Positions 7,097 to 14,477 of a stretch of DNA of 33,121 nt are shown here, one piece after another (the first letter of the stretch is position 1; each line of letters starts with the position of its first letter). The position numbers and the translations under genes are program-made. The notes beneath the pieces were generated by a model. The model saw nothing but the letters and a program-made list of their open reading frames with translations, did not search any database and was not told where the DNA came from. The DNA is from a virus. The stretch lies in UHGV virus genome UHGV-0036156; one strand, given 5' to 3'.

Positions 7097-7247
7097 CGTA
7101 AACGAAAAGCAGGAATGCCCGACCTGCGGTAATGAAGCCCCTGAATATCTGAAAGAGTGTCCCCATTGTGGCGGGCAGAAATGCAATTACTGCGATATGG
7201 GCGATGACACGGCGTGCATGAATTGTGAAGGTGAACAGAATGAATAA
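7089..7247 (+). CDS. Small zinc-ribbon protein (four CxxC pairs)
   Basis: MNNVNEKQECPTCG...CPHCGGQKCNYC...CMNCEGEQNE, about 52 aa. ORF track frame 7035..7247; the ATG at 7089 is chosen as start. Confidence 0.5.
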   Translation: MNNVNEKQECPTCGNEAPEYLKECPHCGGQKCNYCDMGDDTACMNCEGEQNE

Positions 7248-7551
7248 TGGCGTATTTACAAAATCAGAAGAACTTACGGCCCTGCTGATTGCCGGTGGTT
7301 TACCGGAAAACGAGGTCAACGACTTTGTGGCCTTTGTATATGCCCCGTCTTACGAACAGGCTATTGATGAGGTCATGGCGTACCGACTGGGCATTGTTGC
7401 TGAGTCACTGAGTCCTCACTGGATTATTGAAAATCTCCGCACTATTGCTGATGGCAACGATAAAGTGGCGGCTGTCGCCGCCCTTGATGTGCTGCAACGT
7501 ATGAACCGGGAACTATTCAATCCCGAGTTTCTTTTTAAGAAACGAGGTTAA
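7240..7551 (+). CDS. Early protein, function unknown
   Basis: ORF track 7225..7551; the ATG at 7240 follows GAAGGTGA at good spacing. Confidence 0.5.
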   Translation: MNNGVFTKSEELTALLIAGGLPENEVNDFVAFVYAPSYEQAIDEVMAYRLGIVAESLSPHWIIENLRTIADGNDKVAAVAALDVLQRMNRELFNPEFLFKKRG

Positions 7552-7929
7552 CCACTGTTTGCCGACGTCTGTTACGAGCGTCATCGGGGCGTCGGCAAGC
7601 TCCTGTTTTATACGCTCAAGAATGGGTTTTTGATGTAGTGCTTTCGCAAAATCATGACCATCTTGTGTGAGTCTGACACTGGTGCCTGAATATGAATATC
7701 CGAGGCTTGTCGGGGTGAGACCAATGCTTTTTGCGGTGCCTGTTTCCAGATATCTGTTGCTGATAAAACCATTTTCAACCAGCAACAGAAGATGGAAAAC
7801 CAGCTTCTGATGGCTGTCGCTGTGCCGCTGAGAACGATCCCAGCCGACATCTTCCAGTCGAATGAATGCAGTGTCGGCCTCCAGGAATACATCAAATATT
7901 CTGGCTATCTCGTCATAATCAATTTTCAT
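7513..7929 (-). CDS. Counter-oriented accessory gene (138 aa), function unknown
   Basis: Only sizeable ORF in 7552..7942, antisense to the early operon. AAGGAA 6 nt upstream of its ATG; 3' end overlaps the converging plus-strand gene by 39 bp. Confidence 0.6.
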   Translation of the reverse strand: MKIDYDEIARIFDVFLEADTAFIRLEDVGWDRSQRHSDSHQKLVFHLLLLVENGFISNRYLETGTAKSIGLTPTSLGYSYSGTSVRLTQDGHDFAKALHQKPILERIKQELADAPMTLVTDVGKQWLTSFLKKKLGIE

Positions 7930-8979: not shown

Positions 8980-9540
8980 ATGCCTGAGTTTTCCCCTGCA
9001 TTCCTTCATTCGCTGAATTTTGTTATACGGCCTGATGTTGAAGGTGGTTACGTTAATGATCCCACTGACCGTGGCGGCGAAACCAAATACGGCATTTCTG
9101 ACCGTCGCGACGGCGTTATTGATGGCAAAACCGATGTTAACGGTGACGGGAAGCCTGATACCCGTATTAAAGATTTAACCCACGAGCAGGCGGCGCAAAT
9201 CTACTGGCGTGATTACTGGCTGGCGGCAAAGTGTAACGAATGGCCTGATGGTGTTTCCTTATTCGTCTTTGATGCTGCCGTTCAGCACGGTGTTAAACGC
9301 GCAATTCAAATCCTCCAGGCGGCAGCAGGTGTTGATGATGATGGCATCGTCGGCAAAAACACTCGCGCAGCCGTACTGCGTGCCGATACTGACTGGCTGC
9401 TGTTGCAGTGTTTCCTGCGTCGTTCCCGCTATTACGCAGGGATTATCAAATCCAGTACCTCGCAGGGGAAATATCTGAACGGCTGGTTTAACCGTCTGGA
9501 TCTGCTCGCCAGCGCCTGCCGGGAGGTTCTGCATGGGTAA
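8980..9540 (+). CDS. Endolysin, glycoside hydrolase family 108 type
   Basis: N-terminal signature RPDVEGGYVNDPTDRGGETKYGI, longer C-terminal region. CAGGAGGG precedes the ATG at 8980; ORF track starts at an upstream GTG at 8947. Confidence 0.8.
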   Translation: MPEFSPAFLHSLNFVIRPDVEGGYVNDPTDRGGETKYGISDRRDGVIDGKTDVNGDGKPDTRIKDLTHEQAAQIYWRDYWLAAKCNEWPDGVSLFVFDAAVQHGVKRAIQILQAAAGVDDDGIVGKNTRAAVLRADTDWLLLQCFLRRSRYYAGIIKSSTSQGKYLNGWFNRLDLLASACREVLHG

Positions 9541-9751
9541 AGGGTGGGATGCGTCCTTTCGGTTTGGCAGACGCGAACGTTTACGACAGGAGGTGTTACA
9601 TCGGGAGGCCGGAGGTCCACCACCAAAGCCAATGGATTACACAGGGCACGATGGCACCCACGGGAGCTATTACATGAAAGGCTGGCAGTCAGTCGATATG
9701 CCAGAAATTATTCACCACTGCCAGCGTTACAGGGAAAAGCATCATGTTTAA
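9533..9751 (+). CDS. Small protein in the lysis cassette, function unknown
   Basis: ATG overlaps the endolysin stop (ATGGGTAA) with GGGAGG upstream; 72 aa, no transmembrane segment. Confidence 0.45.
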   Translation: MGKGWDASFRFGRRERLRQEVLHREAGGPPPKPMDYTGHDGTHGSYYMKGWQSVDMPEIIHHCQRYREKHHV

Positions 9752-10124
9752 GCGTTTCTGTTATTTGTTACCAAATTGTCTGCCGGTCATGTTGCTGGCG
9801 CTGATTCTGATTATCAGCTTGTTTTATGGTTTGCGGGCGGTGCTGTTCTGGAATGCTGCCGTTTTCAGTGTGGCGCTGTGCTTTACCGGCACTATTTTTG
9901 ATGATCTGTCCCGGACAGGAAAAATCCGACGTTATGCTTCTATTAATGCCATTGATTTTCTTGGTGGCCTCGTCGGGTTAAGTCTTTCGGCTATTGCAAC
10001 CGGGCTTTTAGAAGAAGCGCATCAGTTCACGATTTATGCTTTATCTGGCTTCTGTAGCATATGGTTTTGCTTTCGCCTCCATATCTGTCTGCGACGTTCA
10101 GTACCGTCTGGCGCGGAGGCATGA
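9744..10124 (+). CDS. Multi-pass membrane protein, candidate holin
   Basis: 126 aa with three to four hydrophobic segments, immediately downstream of the endolysin. Confidence 0.55.
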   Translation: MFKRFCYLLPNCLPVMLLALILIISLFYGLRAVLFWNAAVFSVALCFTGTIFDDLSRTGKIRRYASINAIDFLGGLVGLSLSAIATGLLEEAHQFTIYALSGFCSIWFCFRLHICLRRSVPSGAEA

Positions 10125-10246
10125 TGTACAGAAGATTCAGTAATGAATGTTCCGGCATGGCTACGTTGCTGATGGTGATGAAGGGTATCACAGTTATTGC
10201 ACTGCTTGCCGTAGTCACGGGGATCTGTCTGTTAGTTTTTCGCTGA
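10121..10246 (+). CDS. Small single-pass membrane protein (lysis accessory?)
   Basis: ATGA start/stop overlap with the preceding gene; about 41 aa with a C-terminal hydrophobic segment. ORF track frame 10061..10246. Confidence 0.4.
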   Translation: MMYRRFSNECSGMATLLMVMKGITVIALLAVVTGICLLVFR

Positions 10247-10256
10247 TGGGGGCAAA

Positions 10257-10667
10257 ATGACAAATCAGCAGGATTTATTTGAACATGATCCGGCTGTAAG
10301 CCAGTTAATGGATCATATCGACAATATACCGGCTCCTGAGCAGGAGGCCCGCTGGCCCCGCGCGCTGGTTGAGCTGGTTGACGTTCTGGAAACAGAACTG
10401 AAACGTCAGGGCGTGGATGATGCACGGAGCATAGCCCGTAAACAGGTGATGTCCTTATCATGGTTCCTGGGGGGGCGGCAGTATTACATCCCCCGGGGTG
10501 ATGCACTTCTGGCAGCGTTGCGGGATGATCTGATTTACTGCCAGTTTAACGGTCGGAACATAGAGGAGCTGCGGCGTGAACATCGTCTGTCACAACCGCA
10601 GATTTACAAGATTATTGCCCGGCAGAGAAAACTTCATTCACGGCGACATCAGCCCGATTTATTCTGA
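10257..10667 (+). CDS. C: C-like late-gene transcription activator (Mor/C family)
   Basis: 136 aa; paralogue of Mor with the same conserved motifs; sits upstream of the late operons. Confidence 0.85.
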   Translation: MTNQQDLFEHDPAVSQLMDHIDNIPAPEQEARWPRALVELVDVLETELKRQGVDDARSIARKQVMSLSWFLGGRQYYIPRGDALLAALRDDLIYCQFNGRNIEELRREHRLSQPQIYKIIARQRKLHSRRHQPDLF

Positions 10668-10678
10668 GTAACAGCAAT

Positions 10679-10698
10679 CAACCGGTGCAGGCCGGTTG
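10679..10698 (+). terminator. Candidate terminator hairpin after C
   Basis: CAACCGG-TGCAGG-CCGGTTG hairpin 10 nt after the C stop, followed by TGTTAATT; the U-tract is weak. Confidence 0.35.
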
Positions 10699-10740
10699 TG
10701 TTAATTAATAATAACCCCGTCTACAAATTCCCCTGAGTTA

Positions 10741-10766
10741 CCCTCCTTTTATTACCGAAGGAGGGT
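10741..10766 (+). promoter_or_regulatory. Hairpin pairing the Shine-Dalgarno sequence of the downstream gene
   Basis: CCCTCCTT - 9-10 nt loop - AAGGAGGG, ending a few nt before the ATG at 10770; the 8-bp perfect stem contains the ribosome-binding site. Confidence 0.45.
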
Positions 10767-10769
10767 TTC

Positions 10770-11198
10770 ATGAACGATTTTAAAAAACGTCTCCCCCGCA
10801 TCATCAGAACGCTTGCCATCGTGGTACTGGCGGCATGTGGTGGCTGGCAGTTGTCCGGCGATGGTGATTCATCGCTGGCTTCTGTTCAGTACCTTCCATA
10901 CACAGATCAGCACGGCGAACTGACTGTTTGCCTTAACCATCACGGTCCTGATATTCAGCAACGCCCTTACAGCTATGGTGAATGCATCATGCTGTTGAAA
11001 GCAGATTTGAAGCCTGTTTATGACACGTTAAATACCCATCTGAACAGGCCACTGACAGAGGAGCAAAAAAATGCACTGGCGGTGTTTATGTTCAGCGCCG
11101 GTTCTGGTGCTGTGCCCGCTCCCCGTAATAATCAGCTGCTGAATGATGATGTGTTACCGGTGCCGGGATTAATGCCGGGTATGTCGTCAGGGCTGTAA
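10770..11198 (+). CDS. Mu gp22-like lysozyme-fold protein (phage lysozyme family) with altered catalytic site, N-terminal SAR or lipoprotein-type signal
   Basis: YLPYTD...TVC...ECxxLLxxDL...ALxxFxFxxGxG aligns with P21 R-type SAR endolysins. N-terminus MNDFKKR + TLAIVVLAAC. Ala sits where the catalytic Glu is expected, and the protein is about 25 aa short at the C-terminus. Confidence 0.75.
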   Translation: MNDFKKRLPRIIRTLAIVVLAACGGWQLSGDGDSSLASVQYLPYTDQHGELTVCLNHHGPDIQQRPYSYGECIMLLKADLKPVYDTLNTHLNRPLTEEQKNALAVFMFSAGSGAVPAPRNNQLLNDDVLPVPGLMPGMSSGL

Positions 11199-11805: not shown

Positions 11806-12384
11806 ATGATGGACAGGAAAACACGGGGACGGGCTTCAAAAGTGGATTTGCTGCCGGAAAACGTGCGCAAAACACTGCATGAAATGCTGCGTGACAAGGC
11901 AATCCCACAGGCCCGCATTCTGGAAGAAATTAACGCCCTGATTGAAGATGCCGGACTGCCTGATGACATGAAACTCTCCCGTTCCGGCCTGAACCGTTAC
12001 GCGACAAACGTCGAACAGGTAGGCCATAACCTGCGACAGATGCGTGAAATGACGTCAGCACTGACCGCAGAACTTGGCGACAAGCCAATGGGGGAAACCA
12101 CAAAGCTGATTCTGGAAATGGCCCGCAGCCAGCTTTTTAAAGCCATGATGCGGCAAATCGAAAAACCGGAAGATGACGTGGATATTGAACTGCTGAAAAA
12201 CGCCATGCTGGCGGCACAGCGTCTGGAATCCACAGCAATGTCCAGCCACCGGCGCGAGAAAGAGATCCGCCAGGCATTCGCAGAAGAAGCGGCAAACGCT
12301 GTCAGCGAAGAACTGCGCGGGCAGGATGGCATCAGCGAAGAACTGGAGCAGCGTATCCGTGATGTGCTGCTGGGGAAAGCGTAA
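11806..12384 (+). CDS. Putative terminase small subunit (Mu D/gp27-like)
   Basis: 192 aa, helical and charged; positioned upstream of the large terminase as in Mu. Confidence 0.65.
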   Translation: MMDRKTRGRASKVDLLPENVRKTLHEMLRDKAIPQARILEEINALIEDAGLPDDMKLSRSGLNRYATNVEQVGHNLRQMREMTSALTAELGDKPMGETTKLILEMARSQLFKAMMRQIEKPEDDVDIELLKNAMLAAQRLESTAMSSHRREKEIRQAFAEEAANAVSEELRGQDGISEELEQRIRDVLLGKA

Positions 12385-12397
12385 AGGAGAAAATGTA

Positions 12398-12592
12398 ATG
12401 GCTGTTGAAACCAAAGAAAAAACGTCTGCGGAAATTGCCCTGAAACTCAAACCCATCGTCGAAGCGGCGCTGGCTGAGGAGGGCAATATTCATATCGTCA
12501 CAAAAGCCGAATCACTGTATCTGTTAATGCAGATTGTGGTTGGCCCGCGTATCGCGGGCCAGATCATCAGAGAGTCACAAATTAATCAGTAA
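12398..12592 (+). CDS. Small protein, function unknown, in an inserted segment between terminase genes
   Basis: AAGGAG 8 nt upstream of ATG at 12398 (ORF track frame 12326..12592); 64 aa. Confidence 0.5.
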   Translation: MAVETKEKTSAEIALKLKPIVEAALAEEGNIHIVTKAESLYLLMQIVVGPRIAGQIIRESQINQ

Positions 12593-12767
12593 TCATTGCC
12601 TCCAGCAACTGATAAATATGTTTTAACAACTCCCGTTCTGACTTCACATTTTGATCAGAACCGGCAAGACACGCTGGCTGTTTATTCGTATTCATGCCAG
12701 CGATAACAAAGTCACTTGCTATTTTTGCAATCTCAATTTTTTGGTCAATGGTCAGCTTTTCTTTCAT
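12582..12767 (-). CDS. Counter-oriented small protein (61 aa), function unknown
   Basis: Minus-strand ORF with AAGAGG 5 nt upstream of its ATG and a TATAAA -10-like element about 30 nt further upstream; local AT-rich composition. Confidence 0.5.
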   Translation of the reverse strand: MKEKLTIDQKIEIAKIASDFVIAGMNTNKQPACLAGSDQNVKSERELLKHIYQLLEAMITD

Positions 12768-12821
12768 AGCAACCTCTTTTTACTGATTAAAGCCTGAAAA
12801 TTTATACCGGATTTTTCACCT

Positions 12822-14477
12822 GTGAGCACCAAAGAAAGCAAACTTAAAGCCCTTCATGCGCCCCGCAAAATCGACCTGCGTAAGGAAGCCGAATTGCTTG
12901 GCGTGAATATCGTGACCGATATCGGGGAAGCACAGCCCCGCAATGAACCGGTTTTTCTGGGCTATCAGCGCCGCTGGTTTGAGGATGAAAGCCAGATTTG
13001 CATTGCTGAAAAATCCCGTCGTACCGGTCTGACATGGGCCGAAGCGGGCCGCAATGTCATGACGGCCGCAAAGCCGCGTCGCCGTGGTGGTCGCAACGTC
13101 TTTTATGTGGGTTCCCGTCAGGAAATGGCGCTGGAATACATCGCCGCCTGTGCCCTGTTTGCCCGCGCCTTTAACCAGCTGGCAAAGGCTGACGTCTGGG
13201 AGCAGACCTTCTGGGACAGCGACAAAAAAGAAGAAATCCTCACCTACATGATCCGCTTTCCGAATAGTGGATTTAAGGTGCAGGCGCTTTCAAGCCGCCC
13301 GTCTAACCTGCGTGGTTTACAGGGGGATGTGGTGATTGATGAAGCGGCATTTCATGAAGCCCTGGACGAACTCCTGAAAGCGGCCTTTGCGCTCACCATG
13401 TGGGGTGCCCGCGTGCGGATCATATCGACACATAACGGCGTCGATAACCTGTTTAACCAGTACATTCAGGATGCACGCGAGGGGCGCAAGGATTACAGCG
13501 TTCACCGTATCACGCTGGACGATGCCATCGCTGACGGGCTGTACCGGCGTATCTGTTATGTTACGAATCAGCCGTGGTCACCGGAAGCGGAGAAAGCCTG
13601 GCGTGATGGCCTGTACCGGAACGCGCCGAACAAAGAGAGCGCCGACGAGGAATACGGCTGTATTCCCAAAAAATCCGGTGGCGCTTACCTGTCCCGTGTC
13701 CTGATTGAAGCTGCCATGACACCCGCGCGGGATATCCCGGTTCTGCGTTTTGAAGCCCCGGACGATTTTGAATCGCTGACACCGCAGATGCGCCACGGTA
13801 TCGTTCAGGACTGGTGTGAACAGGAGCTGCTCCCGTTGCTCGATGCGCTGTCACCGCTCAATAAACACGTACTGGGCGAAGACTTTGCACGCCGTGGCGA
13901 CCTGACGGTGTTTGTGCCGCTTGCCATCACTCCAGACTTACGCAAACGCGAATGTTTCCGCGTGGAGCTGCGTAATGTGACCTATGACCAGCAGCGACAA
14001 ATCCTTTTATTCATTCTGTCCCGTTTGCCCCGTTTTACCGGCGCTGCATTTGATGCCACCGGTAACGGCGGTTATCTGGCAGAAGCCGCCCGTCTGATTT
14101 ATGGCCCGGAGATGATCGACTGTGTGAATCTGACCGCATCCTGGTATCAGGAGTGGATGCCAAAACTGAAAGGCGAGTTTGAAGCGCAGAACATCACGAT
14201 TGCCCGGCACCAGACCACACTTGATGACCTGCTCCACATCAAGGTGGACAAAGGTATTCCGCAGATTGATAAGGGGCGCACAAAAGATGAAGGCGGTAAA
14301 GGCCGACGACATGGCGACTTTGCCGTGGCGCTCTGTATGGCTGTCAGGGCGTCTTATATGAATGGTTTTGTTATCGACGAGGACAGCATACAGGCGCTGC
14401 CACCACGCCACCGTGGTGATGATGTTGATAACGATGATTTTGATGATTATCACCAGTTTGAACGAGGGGGCTGGTAA
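12822..14477 (+). CDS. Terminase large subunit (Mu E/gp28-like)
   Basis: 551 aa with an ATPase Walker B-like VVIDEAAF and a C-terminal nuclease-type region; precedes the portal gene. GTG start. Confidence 0.9.
   Translation: MSTKESKLKALHAPRKIDLRKEAELLGVNIVTDIGEAQPRNEPVFLGYQRRWFEDESQICIAEKSRRTGLTWAEAGRNVMTAAKPRRRGGRNVFYVGSRQEMALEYIAACALFARAFNQLAKADVWEQTFWDSDKKEEILTYMIRFPNSGFKVQALSSRPSNLRGLQGDVVIDEAAFHEALDELLKAAFALTMWGARVRIISTHNGVDNLFNQYIQDAREGRKDYSVHRITLDDAIADGLYRRICYVTNQPWSPEAEKAWRDGLYRNAPNKESADEEYGCIPKKSGGAYLSRVLIEAAMTPARDIPVLRFEAPDDFESLTPQMRHGIVQDWCEQELLPLLDALSPLNKHVLGEDFARRGDLTVFVPLAITPDLRKRECFRVELRNVTYDQQRQILLFILSRLPRFTGAAFDATGNGGYLAEAARLIYGPEMIDCVNLTASWYQEWMPKLKGEFEAQNITIARHQTTLDDLLHIKVDKGIPQIDKGRTKDEGGKGRRHGDFAVALCMAVRASYMNGFVIDEDSIQALPPRHRGDDVDNDDFDDYHQFERGGW

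What the first reader, a model, noticed from the sequence alone, without database searches (positions are those of the whole stretch)
12385..12821. AT-rich insertion between small and large terminase genes carrying a convergent pair of small genes
Between the D-like and E-like terminase genes, which are adjacent in Mu as far as I recall, sits a roughly 440-bp segment of visibly lower GC content with two small ORFs. A 64-aa plus-strand ORF (12398..12592) follows AAGGAG. A 61-aa minus-strand ORF (12582..12767) has its own AAGAGG site and a TATAAA -10-like element upstream; the two overlap by 11 bp at their 3' ends. An independently transcribed, counter-oriented gene inside the late operon is a classic moron and could be lysogen-expressed (exclusion, toxin-antitoxin-like or regulatory).
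Basis: inference. Interest (0 to 1): 0.55.

Follow-up and report, generated by a model that had tools for sequence, protein, structure and literature searches.

The report
Mu-like prophage defence–antidote gene pair
Between the two DNA-packaging genes of this Mu-like E. coli prophage sits a conserved pair of tiny tail-to-tail genes laid out like a Pseudomonas phage system in which one protein blocks rival phages and the other shields the phage from that block; here the proteins show no detectable relationship to that system and their function is untested.

Summary
The window is the Mu-like prophage of E. coli SE11. The 437 bp between the small (TerS) and large (TerL) terminase genes has 41.6% GC against 51.7% for the window. 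It holds a 64-aa plus-strand gene ("P") and a 61-aa minus-strand gene ("M") whose stop regions overlap by 11 bp. Mu, D108 and SfMu lack the segment.

Both are real genes: dN/dS is 0.16–0.45, and both belong to conserved but unnamed families with no Pfam, NCBIfam, PADLOC or PDB match.

This is not a one-off insertion. The same convergent P/M pair occupies the TerS–TerL slot in distantly related Mu-like phages. In a few elements it lies elsewhere, for example between the MuA and MuB genes. M never occurs without P; P occurs without M.

The layout matches Tab/anti-Tab of Pseudomonas Mu-like phage JBD26 (Patel et al. 2024). There a minus-strand, prophage-expressed effector blocks assembly of invading phages, and a late-operon antidote sits directly after TerS.

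No sequence homology to Tab or anti-Tab was detected, and their structures could not be compared. My best reading (confidence about 0.5) is a Tab-like defence/self-immunity module built from different proteins. Expression, target and P–M binding are untested.

The parts
11806..12384 (+). Small terminase gene (Mu gp27/D-like); left boundary of the slot
   Evidence: 94-95% nt identity to Mu/D108 gp27; PF11985 Phage_Mu_Gp27 on the same protein in related contigs
12385..12389 (+). Shine-Dalgarno AGGAG for P, directly after the TerS stop codon; 8 nt before the ATG
   Evidence: sequence; no promoter-like site between TerS and P, so P is read as part of the late operon (inference)
12398..12592 (+). 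P: 64-aa acidic three-helix protein (phrog_21398, unknown function); proposed late-operon antidote
   Evidence: 48 clusters; motif EALWLAMQxxcGPxxAA; AF2 pLDDT 88.7, helices 10-27, 33-48, 50-60; dN/dS 0.27-0.45; pI 5.7
12541..12561 (.). GC-rich stem-loop TGGCCCGCG-TAT-CGCGGGCCA inside P, 21-41 nt beyond the M stop codon (12582-12584) on the minus strand; no U tract on either strand
   Evidence: more stable than synonymous-codon resamplings (-19.1 against -8.0 +/- 2.9 kcal/mol, p=0.002; 13 of 21 loci at p<0.1). Function unexplained.
12582..12767 (-). M: 61-aa acidic helical-hairpin protein (phrog_25148, unknown function); proposed prophage-expressed effector
   Evidence: invariant KLTIDQ[KR]IxIA N-terminus, variable loop, C-terminal helix; AF2 pLDDT 75, helices 7-26 and 44-60; dN/dS 0.16-0.37; no TM segment
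12582..12592 (.). 11-bp overlap of the P and M stop regions (TTAATCAGTAA); also one arm of a perfect 11-nt inverted repeat with 12780-12790
   Evidence: convergent genes with 3' overlaps of 11-31 nt in most related loci and abutting (4-15 nt apart) in a few, e.g. L029, L031, L037; 47 bp in JBD26 tab/atab
12773..12778 (-). Shine-Dalgarno AAGAGG for M, 5 nt before its ATG
   Evidence: an SD-like motif at the same distance in 17 of the 18 related loci listed, L017 being the exception
12799..12829 (-). Candidate sigma-70 promoter of M: -10-like TATAAA (12801-12806) with a poor -35 that overlaps the TerL start codon
   Evidence: not significant on its own (159 of 300 shuffles score as well). In 15 of 16 loci the best -10-like site ends 31-46 nt upstream of the M start, with a TG extension in 10.
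12822..14477 (+). Large terminase gene (Mu gp28/E-like); right boundary. GTG start with no SD, unlike Mu.

Best explanation
The segment is a two-gene defence/self-immunity module that works like Tab/anti-Tab of Pseudomonas phage JBD26.

M (minus strand, own SD and weak promoter) would be made from the repressed prophage. It would block a step in the lytic development of incoming related phages that lack the matching antidote. In JBD26 that step is tail assembly, acting through the tape measure protein; here the step is unknown.

P lies 13 nt after the TerS stop codon on the late-operon strand, so it would be made only when the prophage itself goes lytic. It would bind and neutralise M, letting the phage complete its own assembly. 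Late transcription must also run antisense through M to reach TerL, which should switch M off at that time.

Shown here: gene reality, conservation of the architecture, presence/absence polymorphism, and the asymmetric dependence of M on P. Inferred: expression timing, P-M binding, anti-phage activity and the target.
For: (1) Architecture matches the experimentally characterised system. In JBD26, atab (83 aa, +) starts at the TerS stop, tab (83 aa, -) is convergent with a 47-bp 3' overlap and lies 30 bp from TerL. The paper shows that tab has its own promoter and is expressed from the prophage, that anti-Tab is in the late operon and binds Tab, and that tab without atab could not be obtained.

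(2) The paper's genetic prediction holds in natural variation. All 18 non-redundant M types have an adjacent convergent P. Of 25 P types, 19 have an HMM-detected M and 2 more (L035, L036) have a weakly similar convergent ORF. Four P types have no M at all (Tongde, L045, L049, L050), and two members of the L046/L048 type also lack it.

(3) The cassette is dispensable and polymorphic among near-identical phages. Of 44 complete E. coli genomes with this TerS/TerL, 3 have the window type, 1 has X+P+M, 9 have a decayed remnant (X plus an internally deleted P, no M) and 31 are empty like Mu.

(4) The pair travels as a unit. It lies between TerS and TerL in distant Mu-like phages and between the MuA and MuB genes in L036. 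In Methylococcales prophages it lies in the early/immunity region, and in L035 the M-like gene sits downstream of, and co-oriented with, a CI-type repressor gene.

(5) Between E. coli variants the flanks are 88-100% identical, but the block made of P codons 39-64 plus M codons 18-61 is only 38-46% identical. The two C-terminal parts are therefore exchanged together.

(6) Both proteins are small, acidic and soluble, as are Tab and anti-Tab.

(7) In JBD26-like (DUF1804-TerS) Mu-like phages the TerS-TerL slot is a general hotspot for counter-oriented cargo.
Against: No homology to Tab or anti-Tab was detected. hhalign probabilities are 0.3% and 0.06%, the PHROG families differ (14530/13614 against 25148/21398), the P and M HMMs find nothing in JBD26, and Tab homologues are confined to Pseudomonas phages.

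There are no expression data. The M promoter is weak by consensus and not significant against shuffles, and no terminator follows M.

P also occurs alone as the first gene of an early operon (L049), so it may have a function independent of M. The selected stem-loop inside P is not explained by the model. The target of M is unknown, and the fold searches were uninformative.
Confidence: 0.5

Rival explanations
1. Addiction (toxin-antitoxin-like) module. M harms the host cell or the phage genome that loses the cassette, and P is the antidote. The pair persists selfishly rather than defending against other phages.
For: M is never found without P while P occurs alone. The module is mobile between operons. 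The Tab authors themselves liken such pairs to addiction modules.
Against: If M is made in lysogens while P, which has no promoter of its own, is not, a host-toxic M would be lethal to the lysogen. The genes are convergent, not a co-transcribed autoregulated operon. There is no match to any toxin, antitoxin or PADLOC family. M has no membrane segment of the kind seen in type I toxins. Decayed and empty alleles are common.
Confidence: 0.15
2. Regulator of the phage's own packaging. The counter-oriented promoter and the antisense transcript tune TerS/TerL expression, and P and/or M are terminase accessory factors.
For: The position between TerS and TerL is conserved. TerL in cassette-bearing phages has a GTG start and no SD, unlike Mu. 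A selected stem-loop lies in the read-through path.
Against: Mu, D108, SfMu and 31 of 44 E. coli prophages package without the cassette, with TerS and TerL about 94-95% identical at the nucleotide level. The pair also sits between the MuA and MuB genes and in immunity regions, far from the terminase genes. Both products are under protein-level purifying selection.
Confidence: 0.1
3. Two unrelated functions. P is a lytic-phase counter-defence or host-takeover protein in its own right, and M is an independent lysogenic-conversion moron that merely rides next to it.
For: P is more widespread than M and is found alone, including as the first gene of an early operon. Small acidic helical proteins are typical anti-defence proteins (own knowledge).
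Against: M is strictly dependent on an adjacent P in 18 of 18 M types. The convergent, mostly 3'-overlapping arrangement is kept across genera and across insertion sites. The two C-terminal parts are exchanged as one block.
Confidence: 0.15
4. Chance ORFs in a non-coding spacer, or an antisense RNA gene rather than a protein gene on the minus strand.
For: Short ORFs are abundant. A promoter-like site (TTGACC-16-TGcAAAAAT, 12748..12721) lies inside M.
Against: dN/dS is 0.16-0.45. Homologues at 25-52% identity keep the reading frames, SD sites and predicted helices. The internal promoter-like site depends on the codons A-K-I, and other family members have R or Q at the K position. There is no Rfam match.
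Confidence: 0.02

Closest known systems
Tab / anti-Tab of Pseudomonas phage JBD26 (Patel et al. 2024, Nat Commun 15:1644, PMC10884400)
   Same: Host element is a Mu-like transposable phage. [quoted passage not shown] The minus-strand small gene abuts TerL. The genes are convergent with overlapping 3' ends. The cassette is absent from close relatives. The effector is never found without the antidote. The proteins are small, acidic and soluble.
   Different: No detectable sequence similarity, and different PHROG families. The proteins are 61-64 aa against 83 aa. The 3' overlap is 11 bp against 47 bp. P/M occurs across Enterobacterales and in Methylococcales prophages, and sometimes outside the terminase slot, whereas Tab is reported only in close JBD26 relatives. 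Activity, target and binding are untested here.
Classic lambdoid 'moron' (a gene with its own promoter and terminator inserted between late genes; Juhala/Hendrix definition as quoted in PMC4378225)
   Same: Extra DNA between two genes that are adjacent in relatives, lower GC, and likely independent transcription.
   Different: It is a two-gene functional unit with one member embedded in the host operon. There is no intrinsic terminator. It is conserved in the same slot across distant phages rather than sporadic.
Type I and type II toxin-antitoxin modules
   Same: An interdependent pair in which one partner is never found alone; for type I, convergent 3'-overlapping transcripts.
   Different: Both partners are conserved soluble proteins. 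They are not co-transcribed. There is no hydrophobic toxin and no match to a TA family.
Other prophage defence/self-immunity pairs cited by the Tab authors (BstA-aba, lambda RexAB)
   Same: The logic of a prophage-expressed defence with a built-in escape for the phage's own lytic cycle.
   Different: Unrelated components and sizes. In BstA-aba the self-immunity element is a stretch of DNA, not a protein.

Membership tests
Tab/anti-Tab system (JBD26 gp31/gp30) | [quoted passage not shown] | tested here: met
Tab/anti-Tab system (JBD26 gp31/gp30) | Antidote gene on the late-operon strand immediately after TerS | tested here: met
   P starts 13 nt after the TerS stop and its SD abuts the stop; in JBD26 there is a 1-bp overlap
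Tab/anti-Tab system (JBD26 gp31/gp30) | Effector gene on the opposite strand with its own promoter | tested here: inconclusive
   Orientation and SD are met. The promoter is only consensus-like; its position is conserved, but it is not significant on its own.
Tab/anti-Tab system (JBD26 gp31/gp30) | Sequence homology of the effector to Tab (phrog_14530) | tested here: not met
   hhalign probability 0.3%; tblastn with Tab finds only Pseudomonas phages; M is phrog_25148; the M HMM finds nothing in JBD26
Tab/anti-Tab system (JBD26 gp31/gp30) | Sequence homology of the antidote to anti-Tab (phrog_13614) | tested here: not met
   hhalign probability 0.06%; P is phrog_21398
Tab/anti-Tab system (JBD26 gp31/gp30) | Effector not viable or not found without the antidote; antidote alone is tolerated | tested here: met
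   18 of 18 M types have P; P-only loci exist
Tab/anti-Tab system (JBD26 gp31/gp30) | Cassette dispensable and absent from close relatives | tested here: met
Tab/anti-Tab system (JBD26 gp31/gp30) | Constitutive expression from the prophage; blocks tail assembly via the tape measure protein; antidote binds the effector | not testable with these tools
   Needs RNA-seq, plaque assays, electron microscopy and interaction assays.
Classic moron | Own promoter and own terminator flanking a single gene; absent in relatives; deviant base composition | tested here: inconclusive
   Absence in relatives and lower GC are met. The promoter is weak. There is no terminator. It holds two genes, one of them inside the host operon.
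Type II toxin-antitoxin | Co-directional bicistronic operon; toxin or antitoxin of a known fold family | tested here: not met
   Convergent genes; no Pfam, PADLOC, NCBIfam or PDB match
Type I toxin-antitoxin | Small hydrophobic membrane toxin controlled by an antisense RNA | tested here: not met
   The highest 19-aa hydropathy window in M is 0.81. The partner is a conserved protein, not an RNA. There is no Rfam match.

The most novel reading that the evidence does not exclude
P/M is an evolutionarily independent defence/counter-defence module. It shares the wiring of Tab/anti-Tab (a prophage-ON effector, a lytic-ON antidote, convergent overlapping genes) but uses different proteins and probably hits a different step of phage development. 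It is widespread in transposable phages of Enterobacterales and beyond. It moves as a unit between operons (TerS-TerL, MuA-MuB, immunity region). It exists as exchangeable specificity alleles, in which the C-terminal part of P and most of M swap together. A selected RNA stem-loop helps to enforce mutually exclusive expression.
Probability: 0.3. Interest if true: 0.7.

Novelty: new variant of a known kind. Interest (0 to 1): 0.55.

Why it matters
Tab/anti-Tab is so far a single example, reported only in close relatives of one Pseudomonas phage. If P/M works the same way, 'a weapon expressed in lysogeny plus an antidote wired into the lytic operon' would be a general design of Mu-like phages, built more than once from different small proteins.

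It would also become testable in a very tractable setting. Phage Mu, D108 and SfMu naturally lack the cassette and have about 94-95% identical terminase genes, so they are ready-made sensitive targets and recipients.

It would give a function to two protein families currently labelled 'hypothetical'. It would also mark the TerS-TerL junction of transposable phages as a place to look for further inter-phage competition genes.

Tried and rejected
Database and fold searches for both proteins and both family alignments found nothing:
- Pfam, PADLOC and NCBIfam gave only sub-threshold noise (DUF6565 at E 0.035; Cas2_II at E 0.04).
- Profile searches against PDB sequences gave nothing below E 0.27.
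- Foldseek of both models against BFVD gave nothing below E = 1.
- The afdb50 library was unavailable.
- Rfam gave no match.

tblastn of M against 50,697 phage records found nothing, and P matched only Tongde.

The internal sigma-70-like site reported by the scan (12748..12721) was rejected as the M promoter. It lies inside the ORF, and its -10 depends on the codons A-K-I, where other family members have R or Q at the K position.

A P+M complex could not be modelled.

Direct or inverted repeats that might mark an insertion mechanism gave only short matches near chance level. The exception is the 11-nt inverted repeat listed under 'noticed in passing'.

Searches of the paper library for the protein accessions, the PHROG ids and follow-up work on Tab found nothing on enterobacterial Mu-like phages.

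Full report
WHAT IS THERE

The window is the Mu-like prophage of Escherichia coli SE11 (NC_011415, 2663820-2696940, reverse strand). The segment matches it at 100% identity.

The small terminase gene (TerS; Mu gp27/D-like) runs from 11806 to 12384. The large terminase gene (TerL; gp28/E-like) runs from 12822 to 14477 and starts with GTG. The 437 bp between them hold two genes.
- P is a 64-aa plus-strand ORF (12398-12592), 13 nt after the TerS stop codon, behind AGGAG.
- M is a 61-aa minus-strand ORF (12582-12767), behind AAGAGG, with TATAAA 33 nt further upstream.

The stop regions of the two ORFs overlap by 11 bp. GC is 41.6% against 51.7% for the whole window. The dip is mostly due to M (37.6%) and its leader.

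IS IT AN INSERTION RELATIVE TO MU?

Yes. In Mu the two terminase genes are 7 nt apart. Mu, D108, SfMu and several Yersinia and E. coli Muvirus isolates match the flanks at 94-95% identity and lack the about 430 bp.

Forty-four complete E. coli genomes carry this TerS/TerL pair:
- 31 have the empty, Mu-like junction.
- 3 have the window's cassette.
- 1 (RM8082) has a longer version with an extra plus-strand gene, 'X', before P.
- 9 have a 272-bp remnant holding X and an internally deleted P, with no M.

Yersinia phage Tongde has X plus an intact P (45% identical to the window's P) and no M.

ARE THE ORFS REAL GENES?

Yes. Each matches a PHROG family of unknown function over its full length.

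An exhaustive HMMER search found M relatives at 38-52% identity. A profile search found 48 clusters of P relatives in E. coli, Salmonella, Klebsiella, Dickeya, Serratia, Enterobacter and methanotrophs. All are unnamed and none has a Pfam domain.

- M has an invariant N-terminal KLTIDQ[KR]IxIA motif, a variable loop and a conserved C-terminal helix.
- P has the motif EALWLAMQxxcGPxxAA.

dN/dS between close variants is 0.16-0.37 for M and 0.27-0.45 for P. In the loci listed, 17 of 18 M genes carry an SD-like motif at the right distance (L017 is the exception).

AlphaFold models give P as a confident three-helix bundle (pLDDT 88.7) and M as a helical hairpin (pLDDT 75). Both families are acidic and have no membrane segment.

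THE PAIR IS A CONSERVED, MOBILE UNIT

Loci retrieved through M alone all carry a convergent P next to it. That holds for all 18 non-redundant M types.

The pair sits between TerS and TerL in Mu-like phages whose portal is only 35-42% identical to the window's and whose TerS belongs to a different family, DUF1804. The 3' ends overlap by 11-31 nt in most loci.

The pair also occurs elsewhere:
- Between the MuA transposase and MuB genes in a metagenomic element (L036).
- In the early/immunity region of Methylococcales prophages (L035, L051). In L035 the M-like gene lies downstream of, and in the same direction as, a CI-type repressor gene.

P occurs without M in Tongde, L045, L046/L048, L049 and L050. 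The reverse, M without P, was never seen.

Between two E. coli variants the flanks are 88-100% identical. The block made of the last 26 codons of P and the last 44 codons of M is only 38-46% identical. The two C-terminal parts therefore swap together.

THE CLOSEST KNOWN SYSTEM

A literature search led to Patel et al. 2024 (PMC10884400).

[quoted passage not shown] It has its own promoter and is expressed from the prophage. It blocks tail assembly of invading relatives through their tape measure protein.

The gene directly after TerS on the plus strand, atab, belongs to the late operon. Its product binds Tab and protects the phage's own lytic cycle. Deletions of atab alone could not be obtained, whereas deletion of both genes was harmless.

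In the JBD26 record the layout is TerS, then atab (83 aa, +), then tab (83 aa, -), then TerL. The two small genes overlap by 47 bp at their 3' ends, and tab lies 30 bp from TerL. This is the same wiring as P/M.

The natural-variation pattern found here is what that genetics predicts: M never without P, P-only phages, dispensability, and decay series.

IS IT A MEMBER OF THE TAB FAMILY?

Not demonstrably.
- Profile-sequence comparison gives 0.3% (M family against Tab) and 0.06% (P family against anti-Tab).
- The PHROG families differ.
- The P and M HMMs find nothing in JBD26.
- Tab's detectable relatives are all Pseudomonas phages at 98.8% identity or more, in line with the authors' statement that homologues are confined to close JBD26 relatives.

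I therefore file this as 'works like Tab/anti-Tab' and not as 'is Tab/anti-Tab'. Very distant homology cannot be excluded for proteins this short.

PROPOSED MECHANISM AND ITS STATUS

In the lysogen, late transcription is off. P has no promoter of its own, so it would not be made. M, with its own SD and a -10-like element, would be made.

The M promoter is weak and not significant on its own. In 15 of 16 loci, however, the best -10-like site ends 31-46 nt upstream of the M start, and in 10 of them it has a TG extension.

M would then disable a step of lytic growth in incoming phages that lack the matching P.

On induction, late transcription would produce P. In Mu this transcript starts at Plys and must read through to reach TerL (established knowledge of Mu late transcription). 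Reading antisense across M should also silence M.

All of this is inference from architecture and analogy. Expression, binding, anti-phage activity and the target are untested. My confidence is about 0.5.

RIVAL EXPLANATIONS

- A host-toxic addiction module is unlikely. M would be made without P in lysogens, and no TA features are present.
- A packaging regulator is unlikely. Most relatives package without the cassette, and the pair also sits far from the terminase genes in some elements.
- Two unrelated functions are unlikely, given the strict dependence of M on P and the conserved convergent arrangement.
- Chance ORFs are refuted by the conservation pattern.

BROADER CONTEXT

A survey covered 76 Mu-like viral contigs with a JBD26-type TerS. 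The TerS-TerL junction is empty in 15 and holds 120-1750 bp of varied cargo in the rest.

Minus-strand ORFs were called in at least 25 contigs. Examples are a recurrent 160-179-aa gene in JBD26-close phages and a 63-aa zinc-ribbon gene. The ORF calls there are heuristic. The junction appears to be a general accessory hotspot in this phage group.

UNEXPLAINED

A GC-rich stem-loop (12541-12561) lies inside P at the conserved G-P-x-x-A motif. It is more stable than expected from the protein sequence and local codon usage (window p=0.002; 13 of 21 loci at p<0.1). It is also present in P-only loci, so it is not simply a 3'-end structure for the M transcript.

VERDICT

This is a real, conserved and uncharacterised two-gene module. 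Its best-supported reading is a Tab-like defence/self-immunity system built from proteins with no detectable relationship to Tab or anti-Tab. Novelty: a new variant of a known kind. Interest: moderate (0.55). It generalises a single-example mechanism and makes it directly testable with phage Mu.

Noticed in passing
window 12541-12561: GC-rich 9-bp stem with a 3-nt loop inside the P coding region at the conserved G-P-x-x-A motif. It is more stable than synonymous-codon resamplings (window p=0.002; 13 of 21 loci at p<0.1). It is also present in P-only loci, and there is no U tract on either strand. Function unknown.
   Followed up: partly
window 12582-12592 and 12780-12790: A perfect 11-nt inverted repeat (TTAATCAGTAA / TTACTGATTAA) brackets the M ORF plus its SD. 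One arm is the P/M stop-codon overlap and the other lies in the M leader. It is kept at 10 of 11 positions in the L004 variant and is absent from the L010 variant. My rough estimate of the chance expectation is about 0.05-0.1 per 600 nt.
   Followed up: partly
window 12807-12824: TerL starts with GTG and has no Shine-Dalgarno sequence (ccggatttttcacctGTG). Mu TerL has ATG preceded by GAGAGG. The same SD-less leader is present in all cassette-bearing Muvirus relatives, including Tongde.
   Followed up: no
window 7513-7929 (minus strand): A second counter-oriented gene in the prophage: a 138-aa ORF that RefSeq calls a DUF2513 domain protein, in the early region. Its 3' end overlaps the plus-strand ORF 7225-7551 by 39 bp. 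Pfam gave no hit at E<=0.01.
   Followed up: partly
L034 794-985; L033 796-964; L002 2097-2273: An extra plus-strand gene 'X' (about 57-63 aa, MKNNYKAQLISAHKKAF...) lies between TerS and P in RM8082, APEC E19057 and Tongde. It is absent from the window and has no Pfam match.
   Followed up: partly
L050 4497-4958; L061 4007-4546; L133 4235-4426: Other, unrelated minus-strand genes occupy the same TerS-TerL slot in other Mu-like phages: 153 aa next to a P homologue, 160-179 aa in JBD26-close phages, and a 63-aa zinc-ribbon protein. This suggests a general hotspot for counter-oriented cargo.
   Followed up: partly
L022 4163-4927 (minus strand in the locus): A 254-aa DNA-methyltransferase-like ORF (DPPY motif) lies between the M homologue and TerL.
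   Followed up: no
L027 4433-4843; L058 3004-3150; L056 2407-2550: A second P-like domain sits at the C-terminus of the ORF upstream of P (L027, L058) or is the only P-like hit (L056). P-like domains therefore occur fused to a larger protein.
   Followed up: no
L049 4001-4213: A P-family member without M is the first gene of an early operon, divergent from an S24-type repressor gene and upstream of a Mu-type transposase gene. This is the position that ner occupies in Mu.
   Followed up: no
window 8980-11198 (L001 1-1814): The prophage carries two Mor/C-family activator genes (one in this region, the other further upstream) and two lysozyme-type genes (a GH108 family protein and a second glycoside hydrolase), according to the RefSeq annotation.
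   Followed up: no
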